The notes under the pieces: generated by a model
The model's input: the letters and a program-made list of their open reading frames with translations, nothing else
The model's database searches: none
Told to the model about the DNA's origin: nothing
Made by a program: the position numbers and the translations under genes
Assembly: GCA_963837545.1 (NCBI GenBank)
Contig: CAWINQ010000005.1
Span: 49,525 to 113,524 of the forward strand
Reading direction: 5' to 3'
Length of the DNA stretch: 64,000 nucleotides
From: an uncultured Actinomycetota bacterium
Lineage (GTDB): Bacteria; Actinomycetota; Actinomycetes; Mycobacteriales; QHCD01
Shown here: positions 168 through 57,121 of the stretch, piece by piece
How the letters are laid out: every line of letters begins with the position of its first letter
Position numbering within the stretch: the first letter of the stretch is position 1

Positions 168-307
168 CCTTGACCACCACGCCTCGGTCTACCGCTGATC
201 ATCCCCGGCTCACGGCACGAAGCCAATGATCGCAACCCGGGGGCCGTCGTTCACGAGGTTTCGGCCGACCGGTCGGACGTCCGGCGGGCGGCCGCGGTCC
301 GCACCCC

Positions 308-372
308 GGCATCATCGTGCGCCCTACTCGCACATCCGGGCCGATCATGCGAGTACACGACACGATGTCGAC
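308..372. repeat. Palindromic intergenic repeat, A-type unit, copy 1.
   Basis: ggCATCATCGTGCGCCCTACTCGCA-(loop catccgggccgatca)-TGCGAGTACACGACACGATGtcgac. Inverted arms about 20 bp. Related copies at 1688, 19481, 29016, 37422 and 52165. Confidence 0.8.
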
Positions 373-453
373 CCACCCGGGCACCTGGCGGCCGACTCCG
401 GCATCATCAGGACGCCGCACCTGAGTGTTCGACCACGCGACGAGGAGGGATCG

Positions 454-1551: not shown

Positions 1552-1607
1552 CCGGCGCCCGGATCACCCGGCTCGCCGACCGCGCTCCTTTCCCTAGCGG
1601 GCCCGTC

Positions 1608-1752
1608 GCCATCATTGGACGCCGTACTCGCAAATAGGACCAAGAAATGCGAGTAGCGCGTCCAATGTCGCCGCGCCGAACCCTCCCGGCATCGTCGTGC
1701 GCCGTACCCGCATCTCCCGACCGAATGTGCGAGTAGCGCGCACGATGTCGCG
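1608..1752. repeat. Composite palindromic repeat: B-type unit (1611-1672) plus A-type unit (1688-1752).
   Basis: B unit: GGACGCCGTACTCGCAaataggaccaagaaaTGCGAGTAGCGCGTCC. A unit: CATCGTCGTGCGCCGTACCCGCA...TGTGCGAGTAGCGCGCACGATG. Confidence 0.8.
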
Positions 1753-1842
1753 GCCGCCCTCCCCCGGGCCGCCGCCCGGCAGGCGACAAATACGGAACAA
1801 GACCACAAAACACCGTAGCGGTGCGTCGCCATCTGTAAGTAG

Positions 1843-12358: not shown

Positions 12359-12378
12359 TGCGCACCTCGTTTCCTCAC

Positions 12379-12423
12379 TGGGGATTTCGACACCGGGGAT
12401 TTCGACACTGGGAATTTCCGCAC
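12379..12423. repeat. 15-bp tandem direct repeat x3 (GGGGATTTCGACACC / GGGGATTTCGACACT / GGGAATTTCCGCACC).
   Basis: Directly visible. Located just upstream of the minus-strand membrane-protein start. Confidence 0.85.
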
Positions 12424-19432: not shown

Positions 19433-19480
19433 GTCAAGAAGACCTCCACCAACCCGGGCTTTCGCGGCGGCCGGTGGCGG

Positions 19481-19546
19481 GCATCATCGTGCGTCGTACT
19501 CGCCTATCCGGGCCGATCCTGCGAGTAGGGCGCACGATGATGATGC
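19481..19546. repeat. Palindromic intergenic repeat, A-type unit, copy 3.
   Basis: GCATCATCGTGCGTCGTACTCGC-ctatccgggccgatcc-TGCGAGTAGGGCGCACGATGATGATGC. Confidence 0.8.
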
Positions 19547-27804: not shown

Positions 27805-28977
27805 ATGCCACTCCCGTCCCGACGCCCCGTCATCGCCGTGGTCCTGGCCGTGCTGGCCGTCTCCCTCGGGCTCGTGCTGGCGCCGGGCACCGCTCACGCG
27901 GCGACCGGTCAGCTGCTGAGCCCGAACGTCGCGATGTACCCGCGGGCGATCCGGCTGAGCCACTCCGGCGAGGCCGACGGCCGCATCATCGCCGACGCCA
28001 CGTCGTTCCCCGCGCAGGGCCCGGTCGGCGCGATCTTCGAGAGCACCGACAACGGCGGCTCCTTCCGCCAGGTGGGTGCGGTCGCCGATCCGCTCGCCGC
28101 CGGCGGGCTGTGTTGCACGACGCTGTTCGAGCTGCCGCGCCGGATCGGCGCGATGCCGGCCGGCACCCTGCTCTGGGCAGGCACCATCGGCCAGGCGGTA
28201 CCGACCGACCGACGGATGTCGCTGCGGATCTGGCGCAGCAACGATCTGGGCCGACACTGGTCCGCCCTCTCGACCTGCGCCCAGGCGTCCAACGACGGCG
28301 GGCTGTGGGAGCCGGAACTGTCCGTCGACGCCTACGGCCGGCTGGTCTGTCACTTCTCCGACGAGACCCACCAACCGACCTACAGCCAGCTGCTCGCCCG
28401 TACCGTCTCCACCGACGGCGTGCACTGGAGCGACGAGCGGTTCACGGTGGCCGGCACGGATCCGCACCAGCGCCCGGGGATGGCCAACGTCCGACGGCTG
28501 CCCGGCGGAAGCTACCTCATGACCTACGAGGTCTGCGGCACCGGCGACCAGTACGACTGCGCCGTGCACTACCGCACCTCACGGGACGGGTGGAAGTGGG
28601 GCGACCCCCGCGACATCGGACCGATGATCCACACCCGCAGCGGGCAGTACTTCACCCACACCCCGACCATCAGCATCGCTCCCGGCGGCCGCGTAATCCT
28701 GGTCGGACAGATCTTGAACAACGCCGACGGCAGCATCGCGCCCGGGAACGGCGGAACCGTCTTCGAGACCGGCCCTGGCGGGCGCGTGGGCTGGTCGGCC
28801 CGGGCCGCTCCGGTGTCCGTGCCGGACGCCCGTAACGACGTCTGCCCCAACTACAGCTCGACCCTGGTGCCGCTCGGCGGAAGCGTGCTGGAGATCGCCA
28901 CCGACTACGGCGCGGACAACGTGTGCCGGGCGTATTTCGCCACCGGGAGCGCCCGACCAGCGGCGACCGGCTCGTAG
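27805..28977 (+). CDS. Secreted BNR/Asp-box repeat glycoside hydrolase (sialidase / GH93-like fold).
   Basis: GAGGAG RBS and ATG. Signal peptide ...APGTAHAA. Asp-boxes STDNGGSF, SNDLGRHW, STDGVHW, SRDGWKW. Confidence 0.7.
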   Translation: MPLPSRRPVIAVVLAVLAVSLGLVLAPGTAHAATGQLLSPNVAMYPRAIRLSHSGEADGRIIADATSFPAQGPVGAIFESTDNGGSFRQVGAVADPLAAGGLCCTTLFELPRRIGAMPAGTLLWAGTIGQAVPTDRRMSLRIWRSNDLGRHWSALSTCAQASNDGGLWEPELSVDAYGRLVCHFSDETHQPTYSQLLARTVSTDGVHWSDERFTVAGTDPHQRPGMANVRRLPGGSYLMTYEVCGTGDQYDCAVHYRTSRDGWKWGDPRDIGPMIHTRSGQYFTHTPTISIAPGGRVILVGQILNNADGSIAPGNGGTVFETGPGGRVGWSARAAPVSVPDARNDVCPNYSSTLVPLGGSVLEIATDYGADNVCRAYFATGSARPAATGS

Positions 28978-29015
28978 TCTGGCCGCGGCTGCTCCGGCGC
29001 CGTTCGGCGAAGGGT

Positions 29016-29078
29016 CGACATCGTGCGCCCCACTCGCACGATCGACCCGGATATGCGAGTACGACGCACGATGATGCC
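29016..29078. repeat. Palindromic intergenic repeat, A-type unit, copy 4.
   Basis: gaCATCGTGCGCCCCACTCGCA-cgatcgacccggata-TGCGAGTACGACGCACGATGatgcc. Confidence 0.8.
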
Positions 29079-29107
29079 GCGGTCTCGGAGGTGATCTACT
29101 TCCCGGC

Positions 29108-37412: not shown

Positions 37413-37421
37413 GGAACCGCG

Positions 37422-37486
37422 GGCATCATCGTGCGCCGTACTCGCATAACCGGGCCGATCGTGCGAGTAGAGCGCACGATGTCGAC
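37422..37486. repeat. Palindromic intergenic repeat, A-type unit, copy 5.
   Basis: GGCATCATCGTGCGCCGTACTCGCA-taaccgggccgatcg-TGCGAGTAGAGCGCACGATGTCGAC. Confidence 0.8.
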
Positions 37487-37528
37487 TGTTACCGGCAGCC
37501 GGCCCCGTTCACGGTCTTCTGAGCGGGG

Positions 37529-44151: not shown

Positions 44152-44611
44152 TCGTCATCCCCCGAGTTGTTCTGGACAGCGCAGCGCCCGGCGCCGGTCA
44201 CGCCGTCATCGACGGAACATGCCAGCACCGCGCCCACGAGCACGGAGGACAGCCCGCGCTGCTGGGCCCAGGATCCGGGCGGAAGAGGCGATCTGCTTGC
44301 TGCCATGGACTTCCCGACGCGGGTGACGGCTGTTCGGACCGAGACCAGGCCTCCCCTCGCGCGGAAAGCGGTGGAGTCGACGAACGCACGGCACGCCGAA
44401 GCCACCGTGCGTCCCTACCGAACCGGCCGAAGCCCCCCAGCGGCCCGCCCCTGCGGGTTGTCGCTCTACTCGACCCAAGCCAGTCACCGCGCAGCGTATC
44501 TCAGCTTTCACACGAAGTGACCCGCACCGCAAAAATCCCGGGAGCCGTGCTCCTCCCCATCCGGCCCGTCGCGCCCCGGCCGCCCCGGCGGCACCGCCGA
44601 CCAATCTCCGT

Positions 44612-44674
44612 GGATCACGCGATATCTATCTGCGTCGATCCCGCGATCTCTATTTGCGTGGATCCCGCGATACC
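44612..44674. repeat. 24-bp direct repeats x2.6 (GATCaCGCGATaTCTATcTGCGTc / GATCcCGCGATcTCTATtTGCGTg / GATCCCGCGATACC).
   Basis: Directly visible in a 900-bp non-coding, lower-GC gap. Confidence 0.8.
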
Positions 44675-46611: not shown

Positions 46612-49218
46612 TCAGTCCCGGCCGACCACCAGCGGGGCCCCGGGCGCGACGACGAGGTCGGGCTCGAAGAACAACCGTGTCTCGTCGCCGTCCATGCCGC
46701 GGCGGTGGTCGACCTTCTCCGTGCCGACCGTGACCGACGACGACGTCCAGTCGCCGGCGACCCGCAGTTCCCGCACTCCGACGGTGCCGTGCAGGCAGGT
46801 CAGCGTCAGGCCGTGCGCGTCCGCGGACGCCGTCCCCCACCCGGTGTCGGTGAGGACCGGCACCCGCCAGTCGGCCTCGGCGCCGATCGGGTGCAGCCGC
46901 AGGCTGCGCGCCACGGCGTTCCACCGCAGGCCGGTCAGCGACTCGAGCACGGACCACCCGGCCATCGCCCGGACGTAGTGGTCGCCGCACTCGATCTCGT
47001 TGTAGGGGTTGCGCCGGGTGCCGTCGTGGCGGGCCCACAGCCCGCGCAGGATCCGCATGCCCTCGTCTTGCAGGCCTTCGTCCAGGCAGTGCGCCGCGAC
47101 CTGATATTCGACACCGCTCCACACCTCGTCGGCGTAACGCGTCGGGATGTCCGGGCGCCCGCCGGTCGGCCAGGAACAGATCAGCAGCCCGCGGTCGTCG
47201 CCGTCGGCGTAGACCCGGTAGGGGTGGTCGAAGCCGCGGAACCCCTCGCGCAGGTTGTGCCGAACGATGGACCGCAACGCCGTCCGCACGTGGTCGACCG
47301 GCAGGATGTAGCCGAGCTCGAGCTGATGGGCCCACCACTGCCCCACGAGCTGGTCGGACAGACATCCCTCGCCCCACTGGTACGCCGTGGGTTCGGCGGG
47401 GTCGAGCAGTTGCCGGTAGTACTCACCGGTCCAGGTCAGCTCGTCGTACGCCGTGCTGCCGGCCCGGAAGAGCGAGTGGTAGCCGGCCGCGGCCTCGTCG
47501 TCGCCGAGCAGCCGGGCCATCTCCTCGGCCGCCCGCAGTGCGGCGAGCCAGTAGCTGCCCATGAAGGTGTTGACGCCGCACAGGTCGATGTCGTGCGTAC
47601 TCGGCTGGATGCCGCGCAGCACGCCGGTCCGATCGGGATCCCATGTGCCGCCGATGTGGTCGAGCAGCCGCATGATCCGCGGCCACATCCGCTCCAGCCA
47701 CGGCAGACCCGCTCCGGCCCGCACCTCGCGGTAGGTCTTGAGGACGGTGCCGAGCATCCCGTCCAGCGCGGGTCCGGTGGGGCCGCCGATCGGCACGTCC
47801 CACATCTGCCGGAGGTAGACCGGCGCCACCGCCCGGTGCGGGATGTAGCCCTCCGGCGCCTGCATGATCTCCAGCTCGGTCTCCCGCATGCTGCGTTCCA
47901 GCTCGGGGAAGAGCCGCGAGACCGCCTGGGCGTAGTTCCAGACGTGCGTGCAGTTGAGGGGGCAGGAGCCGCCGTAGTCGCCGTTCCACATCGCCGTCGA
48001 CGCGCCGAGGGTGCCCTCGAAGCCGAAGAAACGCCCGTCCGCGGTGTGGAAGCAGGTAGGGCTGCGGAGCAGGGACAACTGTGCCGCCATCCGCTCGACG
48101 ACATCGTCCGGCAGCGAACTTGCCGACAGGACGCCCATCCAATCGCGGGAGCGGTCACGCAGCCGATGCCAATCCGTGCGCACCGTCTCCGCGACGTCCT
48201 CGGCGTCGGCGAAGTGGGTCGCGTAGTCGTTGCCGAGCCACAACCTGCTCCGGGAATCGGCCTGCGCCGGCCCGAACTGATCGAAGTTGACGTAGCGGTT
48301 GGGGAAGTACCAGGAGAGCACGACACGTATGGCGACCGTCTCCCCCGGGCCGAGACGGAAGGGGATCCGCAGGCCGCCGTTCCAGGTGGCGCCGGGCGCG
48401 CTCGGCCCGACCGCGGGGCGCGGGCCGCTGCGGACCGAACCGCCCCGCAGGAAGGTGGCGAAGTCGGCCGCCGTCGACCACTGCGGATACACATCCGCGT
48501 CGGTGGTGTCGGCGGACAGCACCATCTGGCCGAACCCCGGGTCGTCGTCGGCCAACGACGGGTTATCCATGAGCAGCGACGTCCACCCGCCGCGACGGCG
48601 CGCGCGGTTGACGTTCCCGCCGTACGACGCGCACCGGTTGTCGACGATCGGCGTGATCCCGTCCCAGCCGACGGCGTTCTGCAGCGTCGCGCCGAGCGAC
48701 CCGTGCAGCTCGTGGGCATCGTCGTTGCGCAGCGTGAAGGTGAACAGCGCCGCGGGCAACGCACTGGCCGCGACATCGAGCGGGACGAGCGGCGTGAACG
48801 CCTCCATGGTCACGCTCACCGGCAGGTCGTCGTCGTGGAAGTCGACCTCGCCGAAGGGATACAGGCCGCGGAACGTGGTCCGGTCGACCGGCCGCAGGAT
48901 CTGCGTCAGCTTCGTGAGCTCGGCCGGCACGACGTGGTCGGACACCAGCGGCGCGGGACCGGGCACCGGATCGACCGGTGCGGACTGCAGGAGGCGCAGC
49001 TCGTCGAGCGGCGGCTCCGGGCGGGACACCCGCAGCGCGAAGAAGCTGCCCGGCAGATAGCCGAGGTGGTTGCCGATGTTGTGCAGCTGCCACTGCCGGA
49101 GGCTGCCGTCTCCGCAGATCGCGAGCTGCCCCGTGCCGATGCCGCCGAGCGGCATCGCGAGCGCCGCCCGGCGGTCCCCGTCGTACGCCATCGACCGGCC
49201 GGCATGTTCAGCAGTCAT
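46612..49218 (-). CDS. GH116-family glycoside hydrolase (GBA2-type beta-glucosidase / glucosylceramidase-like), N-terminal beta-sandwich plus (alpha/alpha)6 domain.
   Basis: About 868 aa. Start placed at MTAEHAG. Pattern LPLGGIGTG...GDYGGSCPLNCTHVWNY. Confidence 0.65.
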   Translation of the reverse strand: MTAEHAGRSMAYDGDRRAALAMPLGGIGTGQLAICGDGSLRQWQLHNIGNHLGYLPGSFFALRVSRPEPPLDELRLLQSAPVDPVPGPAPLVSDHVVPAELTKLTQILRPVDRTTFRGLYPFGEVDFHDDDLPVSVTMEAFTPLVPLDVAASALPAALFTFTLRNDDAHELHGSLGATLQNAVGWDGITPIVDNRCASYGGNVNRARRRGGWTSLLMDNPSLADDDPGFGQMVLSADTTDADVYPQWSTAADFATFLRGGSVRSGPRPAVGPSAPGATWNGGLRIPFRLGPGETVAIRVVLSWYFPNRYVNFDQFGPAQADSRSRLWLGNDYATHFADAEDVAETVRTDWHRLRDRSRDWMGVLSASSLPDDVVERMAAQLSLLRSPTCFHTADGRFFGFEGTLGASTAMWNGDYGGSCPLNCTHVWNYAQAVSRLFPELERSMRETELEIMQAPEGYIPHRAVAPVYLRQMWDVPIGGPTGPALDGMLGTVLKTYREVRAGAGLPWLERMWPRIMRLLDHIGGTWDPDRTGVLRGIQPSTHDIDLCGVNTFMGSYWLAALRAAEEMARLLGDDEAAAGYHSLFRAGSTAYDELTWTGEYYRQLLDPAEPTAYQWGEGCLSDQLVGQWWAHQLELGYILPVDHVRTALRSIVRHNLREGFRGFDHPYRVYADGDDRGLLICSWPTGGRPDIPTRYADEVWSGVEYQVAAHCLDEGLQDEGMRILRGLWARHDGTRRNPYNEIECGDHYVRAMAGWSVLESLTGLRWNAVARSLRLHPIGAEADWRVPVLTDTGWGTASADAHGLTLTCLHGTVGVRELRVAGDWTSSSVTVGTEKVDHRRGMDGDETRLFFEPDLVVAPGAPLVVGRD

Positions 49219-49775
49219 GTCGTCTCTCCCTCCGCGGCGTTGCGCTGAAAGGCCCGGTCGTCTCCGCGCGCGTTCCACGCATCCAGGACCGACGTCACCA
49301 CGGCCGGTGACACACCCGCGGTGGTGTCGACGTCGAGGTCGTACGGGCCGAAGGTGTGGATCAGATCGGTCTCCACGTGCGTCCGGCCCTCGCCGATGGC
49401 CCGGTCGCGCCGCGCCTTCTCCCGACGGTCGATCTCGTCCAGGTCACAGTGCACGCCGACGAGGAAGACGTCCAGGCCGGCGAGCAACTCGGCGAGGTGA
49501 TCCCGCCAGGCCGGGAACTCGATGATGTGTTCGACGATCAGGTCGTTGCGCGCCTGTGCGAGAGCCGGCAGGCACCGGTGGAATCCCTCGAAGAATCGCG
49601 GGCGGACCCGCTCCCACCAGTCGAACGGTCCGCCGTCGTTCCGCCGTTCCGGCAGCATGCCGCTGTCGACCAGGTGGTCGGACGAGACGTGCAGGAACGG
49701 TTCGGGCAACGCGCGCTGCAAGGCGGTGGCCAGGGTCGACTTCCCCGAACTGGAGGCGCCGTTGAGGAAGATCAT
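49215..49775 (-). CDS. Chloramphenicol-phosphotransferase-like (CPT) P-loop kinase family protein.
   Basis: Walker A FLNGASSSGKST. Start placed at MIFLNG. Confidence 0.6.
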   Translation of the reverse strand: MIFLNGASSSGKSTLATALQRALPEPFLHVSSDHLVDSGMLPERRNDGGPFDWWERVRPRFFEGFHRCLPALAQARNDLIVEHIIEFPAWRDHLAELLAGLDVFLVGVHCDLDEIDRREKARRDRAIGEGRTHVETDLIHTFGPYDLDVDTTAGVSPAVVTSVLDAWNARGDDRAFQRNAAEGETT

Positions 49776-49823
49776 CCGGCCGGGGCCGCGCTCCGGCGGT
49801 CGTGGCTCGCGTGGCGGCATGGC

Positions 49824-50758
49824 CTACCGGCGGTCGAGCGGCAGCGCAGCGCCGCGTACCGGCAGGAGGACGGCGTAGACCGAGGTCGTCGCACAGATGA
49901 ACAGCCGGTTGCGCTTGGGCCCCCCGAAGACGACGTTGGCGACCGTCTCGGGGATCCGGATCTTGCCGATCAGCGACCCGTCCGGGTCGTAGCAGTGCAC
50001 ACCGTCCTCGGCGCTGGTCCAGATCCGACCTTCGTCGTCCAGCCGGAACCCGTCGAAGAGACCGTTGGTGCAGGTGGCGAAGACCTTGCCGCCGGACAAC
50101 GTGCCGTCGGCATGCACGTCGAACAGGCGCATGTGGTGCGGGCCGTCGGCCTGGTGGGTGGCTCCGGTGTCGGAGATGTAGAGCTGACTCTCGTCGAGGG
50201 AGAAGGCCAGGCCGTTGGGGCGCACGAAGTCGTCCGCGACGATGCGGCACGCGCCGGTGTCGGCGTCGACGCGGTACACATGACAGGCTCCGATCTCGCT
50301 CTCCGCCTGCCACCCCTCGTAGTCGCTGTCGATGCCGTACGCCGGGTCAGTGAACCAGATCGAGCCGTCGGAATGGACGACGGCATCGTTCGGACTGTTG
50401 AACCGCTTGCCGTCGTACCGGTCGGCGATCACGGTCACCGAGCCGTCGAATTCGGTCCGGGTCACCCGCCGGTTGCCGTGTTCGCAGCTGATCAACCGGC
50501 CGACGGCGTCGATGGTGTGCCCGTTGGTGTAGCCGGCCGGTGTCCGGAAGACACCCACCTCGCCGTTCGTCTCGTCCCAGCGCATGATCCGGTCGTTGGG
50601 GATGTCGCTCCATACGAGGTAACGGCCGGCGGGGAAGTAGGCGGGACCTTCGGCCCAGCGGCATCCGTCGTACAGCTTCTCGATCCGCGCGCTGGTCTTG
50701 ATGCAGGTGCTGAACCGGTCGTCGAGAATCTCGAAGGTCGGCTCACCGGTCATGGACA
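49824..50758 (-). CDS. SMP-30 / gluconolactonase / LRE-family beta-propeller protein.
   Basis: GGAGGCAGG RBS and ATG. Repeated NDxxxDxxGxxW/F blades (FNSPNDAVVHSDGSIWFTD, RPNGLAFSLDESQLYISD). Confidence 0.7.
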
Positions 50759-50861
50759 TTCCTGCCTCCAGCCTCTGGTGATGGACGGGCCCGGCAAGCC
50801 TGGCACAGGGTCCGGCGTCGCGCGAAGCCACCGGTCGGCGGGGCGGACCCGCCCCTAGCCT

Positions 50862-52029
50862 GTGGCCATGGGTCCGGGAGCGAACGGCGGCGAGTGGGAC
50901 GTCGTGGTCGTCGGCGCGGGTCCGGCGGGCGCCTGCGCGGCGCGGTCGGCGGCCGAGGCCGGCGCCCGGACGCTGCTGATCGAACGAGCTCACCTGCCGC
51001 GCTACAAGACCTGCGGCGGCGGCCTGGTCGGGGCCAGCCTCGCGGCTCTGCCTCCCGGCGTCCGGCCGCCTACCCGCGAGCGGATCGCCGCGGTCACCTT
51101 CAGCCTCGGCGGAGGCTTGCGGCGTACCCATCAGGATCCGGCTCAGATGGTCGAGATGATCAACCGCGACGAGTTCGACGCGGCACTCACCAGCAGCGCG
51201 GTCTCGCAGGGAGTCACGCTGCTCCCGGGCACCGTGCTGCGCCAGATCGAGACCGCGGACGACCACGTCATGCTGACCACATCGGCCGGCGCGGTCACCG
51301 CGCGAGCCGTGGTGGTGCAGACGGGACCTCGGGGCGGACGGGTCGCCACGTCGGGGTGACCTGCGGACAGGTCGATCTGGGGCTCGAGGTCGAGGTCGCG
51401 GCCGACCCCGCGACCGCCGCGGCCTGGGCCGGGCGGATCCAGCTCGACTGGGGCCGCTGCCGGGCTCCTACGGGTGGGTCTTCCCCAAGGGCGATGCGCT
51501 GACGGTCGGGGTGATCTCGACCCGCGGCGATGGCGACGCGGTCCGCGACTACCTGCACCGGTTCGTGGGCCAGCTCGGGCTCGCGGACCACCGGGTGATC
51601 CGTTCATCGGGGCACCTGACCCGGTGCCGCGACGACCGCTCGCCGCTCGCACGGGGCCGGGTGCTGGTCGCCGGCGATGCGGCCGGACTGCTCGAGCCGT
51701 GGACCCGGGAGGGCATCTCTTTCGCGCTCCGGTCCGGGCGGATCGCGGGGGCCGCAGCCGCGCGCATCGCCCGAGCCGGGGACGAGCGGGTGGCCGAGCT
51801 GGGTACGACGTACGCCGCCGAGATCGACGGGAGCCTGGGCGCCGAGATGCGGGCCGGGCGCGCGATCATGGCGGCGTTCTCCCGGCGGCCCCGCGCGTTC
51901 CATGCCGCGATCGCGGCCGGCGGGCCGACGTGGCGGACGTTCATGCGGTTGACCCGCGGGGAGACCACCCTCCCGCGGGTGATGCGGCACCGCCCGGTCG
52001 CCGCGCTGGTCTCCGCCCTCGCCCGCTGA
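50862..52029 (+). pseudogene. Geranylgeranyl-reductase-family FAD-dependent oxidoreductase, disrupted by two frameshifts (about 51357 and about 51447).
   Basis: N-terminus (VVVVGAGPAGACAARSAAEAGARTLLIER...CGGGL) in frame 0. Middle (GLEVEVAADPATAAAWAGRIQLDWG) in frame 2. C-terminus (PGSYGWVFPKGDALTVGV...VLVAGDAAGLLEPWTREGI) in frame 1. Confidence 0.6.
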
Positions 52030-52073
52030 TCCCGGACCACCTCGTCGCGTGGCGTCATCGCTTCCCGCACCGC

Positions 52074-52330
52074 CGTCGGCGGCAACATCGGACGCCGTAC
52101 TCGCAAAACCGGCCGGGAAATGCGGGTAGCGGGTCCAACGTCGCCCCCGCCGGCCGGCACCCGCATCATCGTGCGCCCTACTCGCACAATCGGCCGGGAA
52201 ATGCGAGTAGCACGCACGATGTCGCCGGACTGCGGCCGCCCGACCCGTCGGCGGCAACATCGGACGCCGTATTCGCAAAACCGGCCGGGAAATGCGAGTA
52301 GCGGGTCCAACGTCGCCCCCGCCGGCCGGC
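52074..52330. repeat. Composite palindromic repeat array: B unit - A unit - B unit.
   Basis: B1 52083-52147, A 52165-52224, B2 52254-52320. The B units and their flanks (gtcggcggcaacatcggacgccgtaYtcgcaaaaccggccgggaaatgcgRgtagcgggtccaacgtcgcccccgccggccggc) are about 85-bp direct repeats. Confidence 0.85.
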
Positions 52331-52438
52331 TCCCCATTCCGCCCCTCCATTCCGCGTCAACGTGACGTTGATACGGCTAGAGCGCTTGAACGTGACGTTC
52401 ACGCGGAATGGGAGGGGCGGCGGCGGCTCGGCGGACGG

Positions 52439-54889
52439 TCAGAGGTCGACGGTGGCCGATAGCCGCAGGTCGGCGGCGGACCGGCCGATCCGTACGTCGT
52501 AGATTCCGGGCTCGACTTCCCAACCCGACCCGGGCACCCAATGCGCGAAGGCACGCCGGTCGATCCGCACGTCGACGCGGGCCTCCGCACCGGCCTCGGC
52601 GTCGACCACGGCGTAGCCGGCCAGCCACATCGGCGGTCGGCTGACCTGGGACTGCGGCCGGGACAGGTAGACCTGCACGACGTCGCGACCGGGCCGTACG
52701 CCGGTGTTGCGCACCCGCACCGAGGCGACCGGGTCGGTGCCGGAGGCGATATCGACACCGACGTAGTCCCATGTCGTGTAGCCCAGCCCGTGGCCGAACG
52801 GGTACGCCGGCGTGCGGCCGGACTCGAGCCATGCCCGGTACCCGATGCGGATCCCCTCGGTGTAGTCCAGCCGCCCGCCCTGCGGTACGGCGGAAAGCAC
52901 CGGCGAGTCGGTCTCCTCGGCCGGCCACGTCGTGGGCAGCCGGCCGCCGGGCTCGGCGCGGCCGACGACCACGTCGGCCAGGGCATCCCCGAACTCCTGC
53001 CCCGGGAACCACGACAGGATCACCGCCGCCACCTGCGCGCGCCACGGCATCAGCACCGGCGCCCCGGAGTTGACCACGACGATCGTCCGCGGGTTGGCCG
53101 CCGCGACCCGCCGTACCAGCTCGTCCTGCCGCCCCGGCAACGCCAGGGTGGTGCGGTCGAAGCCCTCGCTCTCGATCTCGTCGGTGGTGCCGACCACGAC
53201 GATCGCCGCATCGGCGTCGCCGGCCAGCGCGACGGCCCGCTCCAGGGCCTCCTCGTCGGTGGGCATCGGAGGCTCGGCCCCGAGAACGATGCTCATCACG
53301 GGGATCTCACCGGCCCGCTCGTGCCGCGCCCGCAGCCGCACCTCCTGAGCCGCGGCGAGGTCGACGACTGCAGAACGCTCGGGCGGGTCGAGGAACGCCG
53401 CGAACGCCTCACTCGCATCGACGGTGATGTCCTCGTCGAGGAGCTCCCGCCCGTCCACCTCGAGCCGGAAGCGGCCGACCCCGCGCACGCCGAAGCGGTA
53501 CGGGCCGGCGACGTCGGCGCGGAACACCGTCTCGATCTCGACCGCCGCGGCCCGGGCGAGGTCCTCGTCACCGATCCAGCGCAACGTCCCGGACAGCCGC
53601 CGCTCGTCGACGAGGACCTCGCCGGCCGCGTCGACCAGGTGCACCCGCAGCCCGGGCTCCCCCGACACCGGATCGCGGGTGGCCGCGATCGGCACCGCCT
53701 GCAGGGCGCGGGACGTACGCGCCCCGGCGGCGTAGGACACCTCGACATCGGAACCCAGCCCCGCGCGGAGACCGTCCAGCGGGGACACGAGCCGCTCGGG
53801 GCTCACCCACGCGCTGCCGCCGCCCTGGGTGCGGGCCGTCTCGGCGTTCGGCCCGAGCACCGCGACCCGGCGTACGGTGGCGCGATCGAGCGGGAGGGCG
53901 GCCTCCTCGTTGCGGACCAGCACCATCGCCCGGGCCGCGGTCTCGCGCAGCAGATCCGCCCGCTCCGCCCCCGGGGCCGCCGCCAGGGGCACCGCGGGCG
54001 GGATCCCGTCGAGTGCGCCGACGCGGGCGGCGAGCAGCAGGAGCCGGCGCAGCTTCTCGTCGATGTCGGTCTCGCTGACCGCACCGGCCCCGACCGCAGC
54101 GACCAGTCGCTCGCCCCAGGGTCCGGTCGGCCCCGGCATCACCAGATCGAGCGCCGCCCGGGCCGACTCCTCGGTGCTGGTGGTCGCCAGCCAGTCGGAC
54201 ACGACCACGCCGTCGAAGCCCCACACCGACTTGAGCGGATCGGCGAGCAGCCGGTTCTCGGTCATGGTCGCGCCGTTCACCCCGTTGTACGCCGCCATCA
54301 CCAGCCACGGCCGGGCGTCGCGGATGATCTCCTCGAACGGAGCCAGGTAGAGCTCCCGCAGCGTCCGCTCGTCGACCTGCACGTCGACGGTCATCCGCTC
54401 GGTCTCGGAGTCGTTCGCGACGTAGTGCTTCACCGTCGCCGCCACGCCGCCGGACTGCACACCGCGCACGTACGCCGTCCCGATGCGCGCCGTCAGCAGC
54501 GGATCCTCCGAGTAGCACTCGAAGTGACGGCCCCCGAGCGGGGTCCGGTGCAGGTTGACCGTCGGGGCGAGCAGGACGTCGACACCCTTGCGCCGCGCCT
54601 CCCCCGCGAGCAGGGCCCCGATCCGCTCCACCAGCGGCTCGTCCCAGGTGGCGGCGAGCGCGGTCGGGGACGGGACGTTGACCGAGGTCTCCCGCTCGTC
54701 CCAGGTCACGCCGCGGACTCCGGCCGGCCCGTCGGAGAGCACCATGGCGCGCAGGCCGACGAGCGGCTCGGGATAGGTGCCCCAAAACCCCGAGCCAGTC
54801 AGCAACCGGACCTTCTGCCCGAGATCCAGCCTGCCGAGGGCGCTCTCGATCCGTTCGGCGACGGCCGGGCTCTCTGGGGTCGGATGCAT
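52439..54889 (-). CDS. GH3-family beta-glucosidase (BglX-like).
   Basis: GFWGTYP...VLSDG and the catalytic-region pattern (VVSDWLAT). About 816 aa. Start placed at MHPTPES. Confidence 0.8.
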   Translation of the reverse strand: MHPTPESPAVAERIESALGRLDLGQKVRLLTGSGFWGTYPEPLVGLRAMVLSDGPAGVRGVTWDERETSVNVPSPTALAATWDEPLVERIGALLAGEARRKGVDVLLAPTVNLHRTPLGGRHFECYSEDPLLTARIGTAYVRGVQSGGVAATVKHYVANDSETERMTVDVQVDERTLRELYLAPFEEIIRDARPWLVMAAYNGVNGATMTENRLLADPLKSVWGFDGVVVSDWLATTSTEESARAALDLVMPGPTGPWGERLVAAVGAGAVSETDIDEKLRRLLLLAARVGALDGIPPAVPLAAAPGAERADLLRETAARAMVLVRNEEAALPLDRATVRRVAVLGPNAETARTQGGGSAWVSPERLVSPLDGLRAGLGSDVEVSYAAGARTSRALQAVPIAATRDPVSGEPGLRVHLVDAAGEVLVDERRLSGTLRWIGDEDLARAAAVEIETVFRADVAGPYRFGVRGVGRFRLEVDGRELLDEDITVDASEAFAAFLDPPERSAVVDLAAAQEVRLRARHERAGEIPVMSIVLGAEPPMPTDEEALERAVALAGDADAAIVVVGTTDEIESEGFDRTTLALPGRQDELVRRVAAANPRTIVVVNSGAPVLMPWRAQVAAVILSWFPGQEFGDALADVVVGRAEPGGRLPTTWPAEETDSPVLSAVPQGGRLDYTEGIRIGYRAWLESGRTPAYPFGHGLGYTTWDYVGVDIASGTDPVASVRVRNTGVRPGRDVVQVYLSRPQSQVSRPPMWLAGYAVVDAEAGAEARVDVRIDRRAFAHWVPGSGWEVEPGIYDVRIGRSAADLRLSATVDL

Positions 54890-55022
54890 CGGGGTCTCCC
54901 CACGTGTCGGGTCGGCAGGATCGTGGCACACCCCGCGGCACCGATCCACCGGTGCCGTCTCGGCCGGCCCAGGTCACCTGGTTAGGGTCAAGAAGGACCC
55001 GCCTCGACCCTCGGGAGATCAC

Positions 55023-56981: not shown

Positions 56982-57121
56982 GGGGGCGCCGGGCCGCCGC
57001 CGGCGCCGTGTTGACAGTCCTCGTCGTTGACAGTCCTCGTCGTTGACAGTCCTCGCCGCAGTCGAGCAGACTCTCGGCACGCCATCCGATCGCCGAGCGT
57101 GTCGCCTGAATCGAGGCTGTC

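What the first reader, a model, noticed from the sequence alone, without database searches (positions are those of the whole stretch)
52074..52330. B-A-B composite repeat with ~85-bp direct-repeat flanks between convergent genes.
At this locus an A unit (52165-52224) is bracketed by two B units (52083-52147 and 52254-52320). The B units and their flanking sequences (gtcggcggcaacatcggacgccgta...cgtcgcccccgccggccggc) form about 85-bp direct repeats with only 2-3 mismatches.

This looks like either nested insertion of an A element into a B element followed by duplication, or a transposition intermediate with duplicated flanks. It lies between a frameshifted geranylgeranyl-reductase-like gene and a GH3 glucosidase.
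Basis: seen in the sequence. Interest (0 to 1): 0.55.

Follow-up and report, generated by a model that had tools for sequence, protein, structure and literature searches.

The report
Cluster of hairpin repeats between genes
The B-A-B repeat is real: it is a local cluster of three copies of a dispersed, roughly 64-base hairpin-forming repeat that litters the spaces after genes in an uncultured actinobacterial lineage, much like the REP/BIME repeat clusters of E. coli, so it is an undescribed family of a familiar kind.

Summary
**Observation: confirmed.** Positions 52073-52162 and 52245-52334 are 90-nt direct repeats with 3 mismatches. They bracket a third, 68%-identical unit.

**What it is.** All three are members of one dispersed family of about 64-nt near-palindromes.
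- The window holds 9 copies. About 80 more lie in sampled 8-kb blocks of two related soil MAGs (uncultured Actinomycetota).
- The family has two discrete stem types. A has GTGC/GCAC and B has GGAC/GTCC, a fully compensatory double change.
- Of 36 neighbouring unit pairs in arrays of 2-5 units, 31 are A next to B. B was never seen alone.
- Arrays are intergenic, and 45 of 49 face a gene's 3' end.
- A second palindromic family ("C", 52335-52424) abuts the array, so the whole spacer is a mosaic B-A-B-C.

**History of the site.** One relative has no A or B unit at this site. Another has a single A unit.

**Verdict.** This is a REP/BIME-like mosaic cluster. The near-identity of B1 and B2 records a recent local copy event with a 172-nt period. 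It is not an A element nested inside B and not a transposition intermediate.
- No Rfam family matches.
- No mobilising enzyme could be tested.
- A multi-copy DUF222-HNH gene in the relatives is followed by A-B doublets. This is an untested lead.

Interest is modest: a new member of a known kind.

The parts
52073..52162 (.). B1: the first 90-nt copy. Hairpin core 52080-52143; B-type stems GGAC/GTCC; about 7 nt of 5' flank and about 19 nt of 3' flank are included in the duplicated stretch.
   Evidence: repeat limits and mismatches; nhmmer and covariance-model hits, 82.4 bits; fold
52157..52227 (.). A unit. Hairpin core 52163-52224; A-type stems GTGC/GCAC; 10-bp outer stem, 2x2 internal loop, 8-bp inner stem, 15-nt loop.
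   Evidence: DNA fold -20.1 kcal/mol, z -4.25; 83.7 bits; bulge signature CCC/GCA shared with L052 and L064
52245..52334 (.). B2: the second 90-nt copy of B1. Hairpin core 52252-52315. It differs from B1 at the positions matching 52100, 52125 and 52159.
52335..52424 (.). C element: a member of a second dispersed palindromic family. It contains two AACGTGACGTT sub-palindromes and sits directly after the GH3 stop codon.
   Evidence: 33 further copies in the MAG loci, one each in L001 and L002; conserved at this position in L001 and L002; DNA fold -33.7 kcal/mol, z -6.9
1603..1753 (.). Second B-A doublet of the same family (B-like 1607-1670, A 1687-1750). It is collinear with 52080-52224, spacer included.
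303..373 (.). Solitary A-type unit.
19475..19545 (.). Solitary A-type unit.
29013..29083 (.). Solitary A-type unit (best match on the - strand), 39 nt after the stop codon at 28977.
37417..37487 (.). Solitary A-type unit. An A unit sits at the corresponding place in the syntenic MAG locus L096 (4142-4205).
50862..52029 (+). Left flanking gene: geranylgeranyl-reductase family, split over three frames in the window (two frameshifts).
   Evidence: tblastn with the L052 orthologue; family assignment of the intact orthologue
52439..54949 (-). Right flanking gene: GH3 beta-glucosidase, convergent with the reductase gene. The database protein P0001 is 816 aa, so the true start probably lies inside this ORF.

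Best explanation
**What it is.** The locus is a mosaic cluster of dispersed extragenic palindromic repeats. It is the functional and architectural analogue of the REP/BIME clusters of proteobacteria.

**The unit.** Each unit is a near-palindrome of about 64 nt. It consists of a 10-bp outer stem, a variable 2x2 internal loop, an 8-bp inner stem (TACTCGCA/TGCGAGTA) and a loop of about 15 nt.

**Two types.** The family exists as two discrete stem types, A and B. They differ by two adjacent, fully compensated base-pair changes.

**How units are arranged.** Units sit singly (A only, in this A-selected sample) or in arrays spaced 80-107 nt apart in which A and B alternate. Most lie a few tens to a few hundred nt downstream of a stop codon.

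**History of this site (inferred).** An A unit was probably already present downstream of the reductase gene. The 90-nt B segment was then copied to give B-A-B, recently enough that only 2-3 substitutions separate the copies. The copying was by local duplication, recombination or gene conversion with a 172-nt period. An older C-family palindrome completes the spacer.

**Shown versus inferred.** Shown: the repeat anatomy, the family, the two compensatory types, the alternation, the gene-end bias, and the variable occupancy of the site in relatives. Inferred: that the palindromes act as hairpins or cruciforms in DNA or RNA; that they spread by a trans-acting enzyme and grow locally by recombination; and that any host effect is at the 3' ends of transcripts (mRNA 3'-end protection or protein binding, as for REPs) rather than canonical termination.
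For: **Family membership.**
- The window holds 9 copies.
- nhmmer and a covariance model find about 80 more. All are in the window and in loci of two MAGs, MFD01213.bin.1.215 and MFD00822.bin.2.25. None are in the roughly 60 loci from other organisms that matched the search pattern by chance.

**Hairpin structure.**
- 91.8% of pair cells form standard pairs, against 13-46% when the 3' partners are slid by 1-3 columns.
- The pairs at alignment columns 21/77 and 22/76 switch together, UA+GC in 112 rows and GC+AU in 37 rows, with one exception each.

**Array architecture.**
- There are 53 arrays: 29 single, 16 double, 5 triple, 2 quadruple and 1 quintuple.
- Of 36 adjacencies, 31 are A next to B, 2 are A-A and none is B-B. 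All 23 pure B units lie next to an A unit.

**Gene context.**
- 50 of 53 arrays are intergenic. By flanking-gene orientation they split 20 convergent, 26 tandem and 4 divergent (3 more have a called gene on one side only).
- 45 of 49 face a gene 3' end, at a median distance of 69 nt.

**Local copying.**
- Units two positions apart in an array are often more alike than same-type units at other loci: window 0.93, L061 0.91, L078 0.91, against a background mean of about 0.75.

**Occupancy of this site in relatives.**
- L001 has none, L052 has one A unit, and L002 has at least the start of a unit.

**Mosaic with a second family.**
- The C family also forms mosaics with A units elsewhere.

**Match to published REP properties.**
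- Extragenic palindromes, heterodimers, clusters and a bias towards convergent and unidirectional gene pairs are described in PMC3733652 and PMC2817692.
Against: - No mobilising enzyme was identified. RAYT-type Y1 transposases could not be searched for in the source genome.
- The conserved GTAG lies inside the hairpin, at the foot of the inner stem, not at an end of the palindrome as in GTAG-type REPs. The left arm mostly reads GTAC.
- The periodic stretch covers only about 1.5 periods, which a simple tandem duplication does not produce. The copying mechanism therefore remains open.
- The related loci were selected with an A-type pattern, so 'B is never alone' rests mainly on the window and on the remainder of A-selected 8-kb blocks.
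- Gene calls behind the context statistics came from a crude GC3-based caller.
- On the + strand the window's B units are no more stable than shuffled sequence as single-stranded DNA (z about 0). They are somewhat decayed palindromes.
Confidence: 0.72

Rival explanations
1. One reading: an A element inserted into a B element and the target was duplicated, or the locus is a transposition intermediate with duplicated flanks.
For: The architecture 'F - insert - F' is real here and recurs elsewhere. Three A-B doublets in the MAG loci are flanked by 19-30-nt direct repeats scoring 18-21, against a control maximum of 11. A simple tandem duplication would give two or more periods, not 1.5.
Against: - Both B copies are intact hairpins, so nothing is nested.
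- A 90-nt target duplication is far outside what known transposases produce.
- No transposase gene and no terminal repeats other than the hairpins themselves were found.
- The A unit is probably ancestral at this site, because it shares the rare CCC/GCA bulge with the single A unit in L052.
- Solitary units show no flanking duplications.
Confidence: 0.07
2. The hairpins are primarily RNA elements kept by selection: 3'-UTR hairpins that terminate transcription or protect mRNA 3' ends, comparable to the mycobacterial TRIT motif. On this view the array is simply a reinforced bidirectional 3'-end structure for the two convergent genes.
For: - 45 of 49 arrays face a gene 3' end, and few lie between divergent genes.
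- Being palindromic, the units work on either strand, as TRITs do (PMC3152330).
- On the GH3-sense (-) strand the B units fold better as RNA (-50.2 and -48.8 kcal/mol, z -2.4 and -2.6) because three A.C mismatches become G.U pairs.
Against: - No T/U-tract follows any unit, and the terminator scan finds 0 sites.
- Mycobacterial RNA polymerase does not terminate at hairpins that lack a U-tract (PMC3993855).
- For 35 units with an unambiguous sense strand, G.U pairs (11) do not exceed A.C mismatches (20) on that strand. There is therefore no strand-specific RNA signature.
- High sequence conservation of the stems, as opposed to conservation of pairing alone, points to recognition of the sequence.
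Confidence: 0.15
3. Assembly artefact: the second B copy, or the whole array, results from mis-assembly of a repeat in a metagenome-assembled genome.
For: - The neighbouring reductase gene carries two frameshifts relative to its orthologue, which suggests residual sequencing errors.
- Short-read contigs of relatives break at these repeats: L002 ends at the start of a unit.
Against: - The two B copies differ by substitutions, not indels, and sit in different flanking sequence.
- The same class of array is assembled independently at 22 loci in two other MAGs with megabase contigs.
- Each of the two substitutions inside the hairpin (52100, 52125) departs from the family consensus in only one copy, as expected of real divergence.
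Confidence: 0.03
4. The units are arrays of binding sites for a sequence-specific DNA-binding protein, such as a nucleoid-associated protein or a regulator. The two stem types would be two operator variants.
For: - Strong sequence conservation of both stems.
- Two discrete variants with no intermediates.
- Regular spacing of 80-107 nt.
- REPs and BIMEs are known protein-binding sites (PMC2817692).
Against: - The position after stop codons rather than in promoter regions.
- A very high copy number.
- Perfect compensatory change is expected for hairpins, not for duplex operators recognised as half-sites.
- No candidate protein was found.
Confidence: 0.08

Closest known systems
REP sequences and BIME clusters (bacterial interspersed mosaic elements) of Enterobacteriaceae, Pseudomonas, Xanthomonas and Stenotrophomonas; REPINs
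   Same: - High-copy extragenic imperfect palindromes.
- Occur singly, as dimers and in regularly spaced clusters.
- Dimers are built from two different stem variants (heterodimers; PMC3733652), as seen here with A and B.
- Mosaics with other repeat types.
- Located between convergent or unidirectional genes, close to 3' ends.
- If each arm is read as one REP, a unit here is a head-to-head dimer that forms one long hairpin, which is the REPIN idea (PMC3116915, PMC3337134; titles and abstracts).
   Different: - No sequence similarity to these families.
- The unit is a single 64-nt hairpin rather than a 20-40-nt REP.
- GTAG is internal, and the opposite arm reads GTAC.
- Successive units are in direct, not alternating, orientation as far as their slight asymmetry allows one to tell.
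- The host is an uncultured Actinomycetota lineage. Word searches of three key REP/RAYT papers found no mention of Actinobacteria.
- No RAYT gene has been shown.
TRIT (tuberculosis Rho-independent terminator motif) of Mycobacterium
   Same: An actinobacterial, sequence-conserved, palindromic and therefore bidirectional hairpin. It is present in about 150 copies and tied to gene ends (PMC3152330).
   Different: - TRITs overlap the stop codon (around position -8) and are reported only in Mycobacterium. The units here start a median of 69 nt after stop codons and form A/B arrays.
- The sequences could not be compared, because no TRIT model was available. Rfam gave no match.
MITEs (for example Correia/NEMIS elements; BOX modular elements of Streptococcus pneumoniae)
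   Same: Small non-coding dispersed elements with inverted ends. BOX elements are modular composites with a variable number of modules (from my own knowledge of that literature).
   Different: - No fixed short target-site duplication.
- No parent insertion sequence with matching ends in the DNA sampled.
- No isolated half-sites.
- The whole unit is one palindrome.
REP13E12 / DUF222-HNH repeat elements of Mycobacterium tuberculosis
   Same: The two related MAGs carry a multi-copy 1.45-1.6-kb gene with DUF222 (PF02720, E 9e-51) and HNH (PF01844) domains. This is the protein type of the REP13E12 repeat (PMC10589994). In 5 of 6 copies an A-B doublet with a conserved 45-nt spacer follows the stop codon.
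   Different: - The window has no such gene.
- The hairpins far outnumber the gene.
- The hairpins are on one side of the gene only.
- No link between 13E12-type proteins and hairpin repeats came up in the one literature search made.

Membership tests
REP/BIME-type extragenic palindromic repeats (as a kind) | Short imperfect palindromes, many copies per genome, extragenic | tested here: met
   9 units in 64 kb. 50 of 53 arrays lie outside called genes. 91.8% of cells pair, against 13-46% in slid controls.
REP/BIME-type extragenic palindromic repeats (as a kind) | Composite clusters of regularly spaced units, often of two stem variants, mixed with other motifs | tested here: met
   24 multi-unit arrays with 80-107 nt spacing. 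31 of 36 adjacencies are A next to B. Mosaics with the C family.
REP/BIME-type extragenic palindromic repeats (as a kind) | Bias to intergenic regions facing gene 3' ends (convergent or unidirectional pairs) | tested here: met
   20 convergent, 26 tandem, 4 divergent. 45 of 49 face a 3' end. Gene calls are crude.
RAYT-associated REP / REPIN system | Conserved GTAG (or CGTC) tetranucleotide at one end of the palindrome | tested here: inconclusive
   GTAG is near-invariant in the right arm (TGCGAGTAG), but it sits at the junction of the inner stem and the internal loop, not at an end. The left arm is mostly GTAC, less often CTAC. Under a reading in which each arm is one REP the heads face each other, but the arms are not palindromes on their own.
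RAYT-associated REP / REPIN system | A single-copy Y1 (HUH) transposase gene, RAYT, flanked by the REPs | not testable with these tools
   Only the 64-kb window and 8-kb blocks of the relatives are held. The source contig could not be fetched. No gene flanked on both sides by units was seen. The window's genes were not scanned for PF01797.
MITE | Fixed-length short target-site duplication and a related autonomous insertion sequence with the same terminal inverted repeats | tested here: not met
   Solitary units have no flanking direct repeats above control. Only three doublets have repeats, of 19-30 nt. No isolated arms next to a transposase gene were found in about 440 kb.
Canonical intrinsic terminator | GC-rich hairpin followed directly by a U-tract | tested here: not met
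   0 terminator-like sites in 51500-53000. Units are followed by GTCGCC.
TRIT (Mycobacterium) | Conserved hairpin overlapping the stop codon (about -8); genus Mycobacterium | tested here: not met
   Units start a median of 69 nt after stop codons. The host is a different lineage. Sequence identity to TRIT was not testable because no model was available.
CRISPR array | Identical short repeats separated by unique spacers of uniform length, in one or a few long arrays | tested here: not met
   Units are dispersed at many loci, mostly singly. Arrays have at most 5 units, and neighbouring units are of two different types.
Any Rfam family | Score at or above the family's gathering threshold | tested here: not met
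   No match in the window. In 51950-52480 only sub-threshold microRNA-like hairpin matches appeared, at E 0.12 or higher. Nothing was found at the arrays of 8 related loci.

The most novel reading that the evidence does not exclude
The A/B hairpin family may be the cis-acting partner of the multi-copy DUF222-HNH (13E12-type) endonuclease gene. In the relatives that gene carries an A-B doublet at its 3' end. This would be a REP/RAYT-like arrangement in Actinomycetota built on an HNH nuclease instead of a HUH Y1 transposase. It would account for the spread of the hairpins, for the long and variable flanking duplications, and for the long-unexplained 13E12 repeat elements.
Probability: 0.08. Interest if true: 0.7.

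Novelty: new member of a known kind. Interest (0 to 1): 0.3.

Why it matters
On its own the locus is ordinary: one of many repeat clusters in a genome rich in them.

**Practical value.**
- The family, together with the companion C family, explains most of the conspicuous intergenic repeats in this window.
- It marks places where short-read assemblies break (L002 ends at the start of a unit) and where synteny changes.
- It should be masked before intergenic structures in this lineage are interpreted as regulatory RNAs.

**Scientific value.**
- The REP, RAYT and repeat-element papers read or word-searched here deal with proteobacteria, cyanobacteria and a few other groups and do not mention Actinobacteria. 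They describe TRIT and REP13E12 as the known actinobacterial repeats.
- A family with two cleanly compensatory stem types that alternate in arrays is a good natural system for two questions: why heterodimers are favoured in such clusters, and which enzyme, if any, propagates them in Actinomycetota.

Tried and rejected
- **Fetching the source contig.** Exact protein look-up failed for three proteins.
- **Viral contigs.** A pattern scan gave 3 matches, none of them family members by nhmmer.
- **Metagenome contigs.** A scan with a B-type pattern returned 120 loci, all chance matches by nhmmer. It said nothing about solitary B units.
- **Rfam.** Nothing was found at gathering or permissive thresholds.
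- **RNA-strand signature.** G.U against A.C on the sense strand gave no support.
- **Loop 'flip-flop'.** I considered inversion of the loop relative to the arms, because the loops of this array resemble the reverse complement of the usual loop. Loops proved too variable to decide, so I dropped the idea.
- **The B-A doublet as an independently mobile module.** I first inferred this from conserved 45-nt spacers at six loci. I withdrew it when those loci turned out to be copies of one 1.6-kb DUF222-HNH repeat that carries the doublet.
- **Short target-site duplications.** None were seen at the outer edges of the 262-nt array. A 9-nt CCATTCCGC duplication lies at the junction of the array and the C element only.
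- **CRISPR, integron attC and riboswitch readings.** All were rejected on anatomy.
- **A wasted search.** One literature search was badly designed and gave nothing.

Full report
**1.

- Between the stop codon of a + strand gene at 52029 and the stop codon of a - strand gene at 52439 lie three in-register repeat copies: 52073-52162, 52154-52243 and 52245-52334.
- The first and third are 97% identical over 90 nt. Compared at an offset of 172 nt, the match runs unbroken from 52073 to 52162, with mismatches only at 52100, 52125 and 52159, and it ends abruptly on both sides.
- The middle copy is 68% identical to the outer ones.
- Tandem Repeats Finder sees the same stretch as 3.0 copies of an 81-nt period.
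- The shared 31-nt core occurs three times here and never in 100 shuffles of the window.
  - The right-hand gene is a GH3 beta-glucosidase.
  - The left-hand gene belongs to the geranylgeranyl-reductase family. Its intact 389-aa orthologue scores 232 bits against TIGR02032.
  - In the window that gene is split over three reading frames.

**2. The three units belong to a dispersed family**

- A repeat search over the whole window finds the same element at 305, 1605, 1685, 19477, 29011 and 37419 as well. That makes nine copies in 64 kb.
- The consensus is GGCATCATCGTGCGCCGTACTCGCA - about 15 nt - TGCGAGTAGCGCGCACGATGTCGCC.
- The element is a near-palindrome: a 10-bp outer stem, a variable 2x2 internal loop, an 8-bp inner stem and a loop.
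They differ in the outer stem: GTGC paired with GCAC in A, and GGAC paired with GTCC in B.
- No Rfam family matches, at curated or permissive thresholds.

**3. Relatives**

- The GH3 protein has an identical database entry on a 563-kb contig, then relatives at 84% and 81% identity on short metagenome contigs, then nothing above 65%. The lineage is therefore poorly sampled.
- A scan of one genome per species with an A-type arm pattern returned 106 stretches.
- A profile built from the window's copies shows that true family members lie only in two long-read MAGs labelled 'uncultured Actinomycetota', MFD01213.bin.1.215 and MFD00822.bin.2.25. Every other match to the pattern is a chance hit.
- One of these loci, L052, is orthologous to window 47404-52029 at 90.6% nucleotide identity. 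The window therefore comes from a third, related species.

**4. Structure and the two types**

- A covariance model built from the nine window copies recovered the units in the window and 47 MAG loci.
- On the resulting alignment 91.8% of pair cells form standard pairs, against 13-46% when the 3' partners are slid by 1-3 columns.
- Two adjacent pairs change together. They read U-A plus G-C in 112 rows and G-C plus A-U in 37 rows, with one exception each.
- A and B are thus two discrete, fully compensated versions of one hairpin. This is the clearest evidence that pairing of the two arms matters.
- It does not show whether pairing matters in DNA or in RNA.
  - For 35 units with an unambiguous sense strand, G.U pairs (11) do not outnumber A.C mismatches (20).
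  - There is therefore no strand-specific RNA signature.

**5. The B-A-B arrangement is one case of a general rule**

- In the window plus the MAG loci there are 53 arrays: 29 single units, 16 doublets, 5 triplets, 2 quadruplets and 1 quintuplet, with 80-107 nt between successive units.
- Of 36 neighbouring pairs, 31 are A next to B, 2 are A-A, 3 involve chimeric units and none is B-B.
- All 23 pure B units lie next to an A unit, and all 29 solitary units are A.
- The caveat is that the MAG loci were found with an A-type pattern. The unbiased sample is only the window: four solitary A units, one B-A doublet and one B-A-B triplet.
- The window's second doublet (1607-1750) is collinear with 52080-52224, spacer included.

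**6. Where the arrays sit**

- With a crude GC3-based gene caller, 50 of 53 arrays are intergenic.
- By the orientation of the flanking genes they split 20 convergent, 26 tandem and 4 divergent; the other three have a called gene on one side only.
- 45 of 49 face at least one gene 3' end, at a median distance of 69 nt.
- No T-run follows the hairpins, and the terminator scan finds nothing. Mycobacterial RNA polymerase does not terminate at such hairpins in vitro (PMC3993855).
- The distribution is the one described for REP elements (PMC3733652).

**7. A second family completes the spacer**

- The strong inverted repeat at 52342-52416 was not part of the finding. It is a member of another dispersed family, which I call C. 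It is about 70 nt long and contains two AACGTGACGTT sub-palindromes.
- There are 33 further copies in the MAG loci, plus one each in L001 and L002.
- C also comes in two compensatory subtypes, ATTCCGC...GCGGAAT and GTTCGGC...GCCGAAT.
- C elements often flank A units, as in C-A-C-C at L006, L047 and L076 and C-C-A-C-C at L044 and L102.
- The intergenic region here is therefore a mosaic B-A-B-C. This is the sense in which 'bacterial interspersed mosaic element' was coined (PMC2817692).

**8. History of this particular site**

- The C element sits directly after the GH3 stop codon in the window and in both metagenome relatives, L001 and L002.
- In L001 the C element is followed at once by the stop codon of a convergent gene. 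Its last 33 nt resemble the end of the reductase gene, with about 24 of 31 bases matching by eye. This is tentative, but on this reading there are no A or B units at the site.
- L002 ends, after C, in GGGCGACATC, which is the start of a unit.
- In L052 the intact reductase gene is followed, 18 nt after its stop codon, by a single A unit and then by a different neighbour, a PEP-utilising enzyme instead of GH3. Synteny therefore breaks at the hairpin.
- That A unit and the window's A unit share the internal-loop residues CCC/GCA, found in only 3 of 82 units.
- The simplest reading is that A is old at this site and the two B copies are recent.

**9. How the two B copies arose is not settled**

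- Units two positions apart in an array are often unusually alike, flanks included. Identities are 0.93 in the window, 0.91 in L061 and L078, and 0.87 in L069, against a background of about 0.75 for same-type units at other loci. Local copying with the period of a doublet is therefore recurrent.
- The periodic stretch spans only about 1.5 periods here.
- Three doublets elsewhere are flanked by direct repeats of 19-30 nt, which amounts to about 1.1 periods.
- A plain tandem duplication gives two periods.
- Three explanations remain possible: insertion with a long, variable target duplication; duplication followed by deletion; or gene conversion between two older B units. I could not discriminate among them.
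- What can be excluded is an A element nested inside a B element, because both B copies are complete.
- The two differences inside the hairpin are transitions in the inner stem. Each departs from the family consensus in one copy only. That fits real divergence after copying rather than an assembly artefact.

**10. A lead on mobility**

- Six MAG loci (L049, L057, L062, L063, L069, L092) share a 1.45-1.6-kb multi-copy gene. Copies are 95-96% identical within one MAG (L049 against L063 and L069) and about 78% identical between the two MAGs.
- The gene encodes DUF222 plus HNH domains. This is the protein type of the mycobacterial REP13E12 repeat (PMC10589994).
- A further locus, L078, appears to hold a remnant of the gene's 3' end next to its array.
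- In five of the six copies the stop codon is followed by an A unit, a conserved 45-nt spacer and a B unit.
- This made me withdraw an earlier inference that the long-spacer doublet is itself a mobile module. It travels with the gene.
- Whether the nuclease acts on the hairpins is untested. The window contains no such gene.
- Whether the genome encodes a RAYT-type transposase could not be tested either.

**11. Verdict**

- The finding is real and non-random, and its interpretation should change.
- It is a cluster of an undescribed REP/BIME-like hairpin family in an uncultured actinobacterial lineage, with a recent local copy of the B unit. It is not a nested insertion or a transposition intermediate.
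- The kind is well known in proteobacteria. The family, its two-type alternation and its host lineage appear to be new.
- I rate it a new member of a known kind, of modest interest.

Noticed in passing
window 52335-52424; L006 2876-3278, L044 1684-2092, L047 2991-3403, L076 5879-6232, L102 6045-6470: A second dispersed palindromic family ('C'), about 70 nt long, containing two AACGTGACGTT sub-palindromes. It has two compensatory subtypes (ATTCCGC/GCGGAAT and GTTCGGC/GCCGAAT) that alternate in arrays and often flank A units. It is conserved directly after the GH3 stop codon in the window and in L001 and L002.
   Followed up: partly
L049 642-2098, L063 2353-3715, L069 5793-7070, L057 450-1910, L092 739-2146, L062 2291-3661; apparent remnant at L078 295-527: A multi-copy DUF222 + HNH (13E12-type) gene in both related MAGs, 95-96% identical between L049 and the other two copies in one MAG. 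In 5 of 6 copies an A unit, a conserved 45-nt spacer and a B unit follow the stop codon. There is no copy in the window.
   Followed up: partly
window 50862-52029: The geranylgeranyl-reductase-family gene is split over three reading frames (amino acids 1-158, 152-198 and 198-389 of the orthologue). The orthologue in L052 (3370-4539, - strand) is intact. The cause is either a pseudogene or residual indel errors in the assembly.
   Followed up: partly
window 52029/52439 compared with L052 3203-3370: Synteny between the window and the 90%-identical MAG breaks exactly at the hairpin. The window has the GH3 gene beyond the array, whereas L052 has a PEP-utilising (PPDK_N) gene.
   Followed up: partly
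L072 6026-6235, L087 2242-2447, L038 3656-3861: Three A-B doublets are flanked by direct repeats of 24, 19 and 30 nt (scores 18-21 against a control maximum of 11). Solitary units have none. This is unexplained.
   Followed up: partly
L017 4163-4320 and 4677-4836: Two near-identical A-B doublets 514 nt apart, which points to a local duplication of about 0.5 kb that includes a doublet.
   Followed up: no
L078 589-666: The spacer between two units contains its own short tandem repeat (tcgccgttcggtcgtc, about 3 copies).
   Followed up: no
window 37417-37487 and L096 4139-4209: An A unit sits at the corresponding place in the window and in the syntenic MAG locus L096. The stems are kept, while the internal-loop and loop bases differ. 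Some units therefore persist across species.
   Followed up: partly
window 57010-57055, 44604-44672, 12376-12418: Short tandem repeats unrelated to the hairpin family: a 16-nt unit x 2.9 at 100% identity, a 24-nt unit x 2.9, and a 15-nt unit x 2.9.
   Followed up: no
L078 5912-6150: A cobalamin riboswitch (RF00174, 76 bits) in one of the related loci. It is unrelated to the finding.
   Followed up: no
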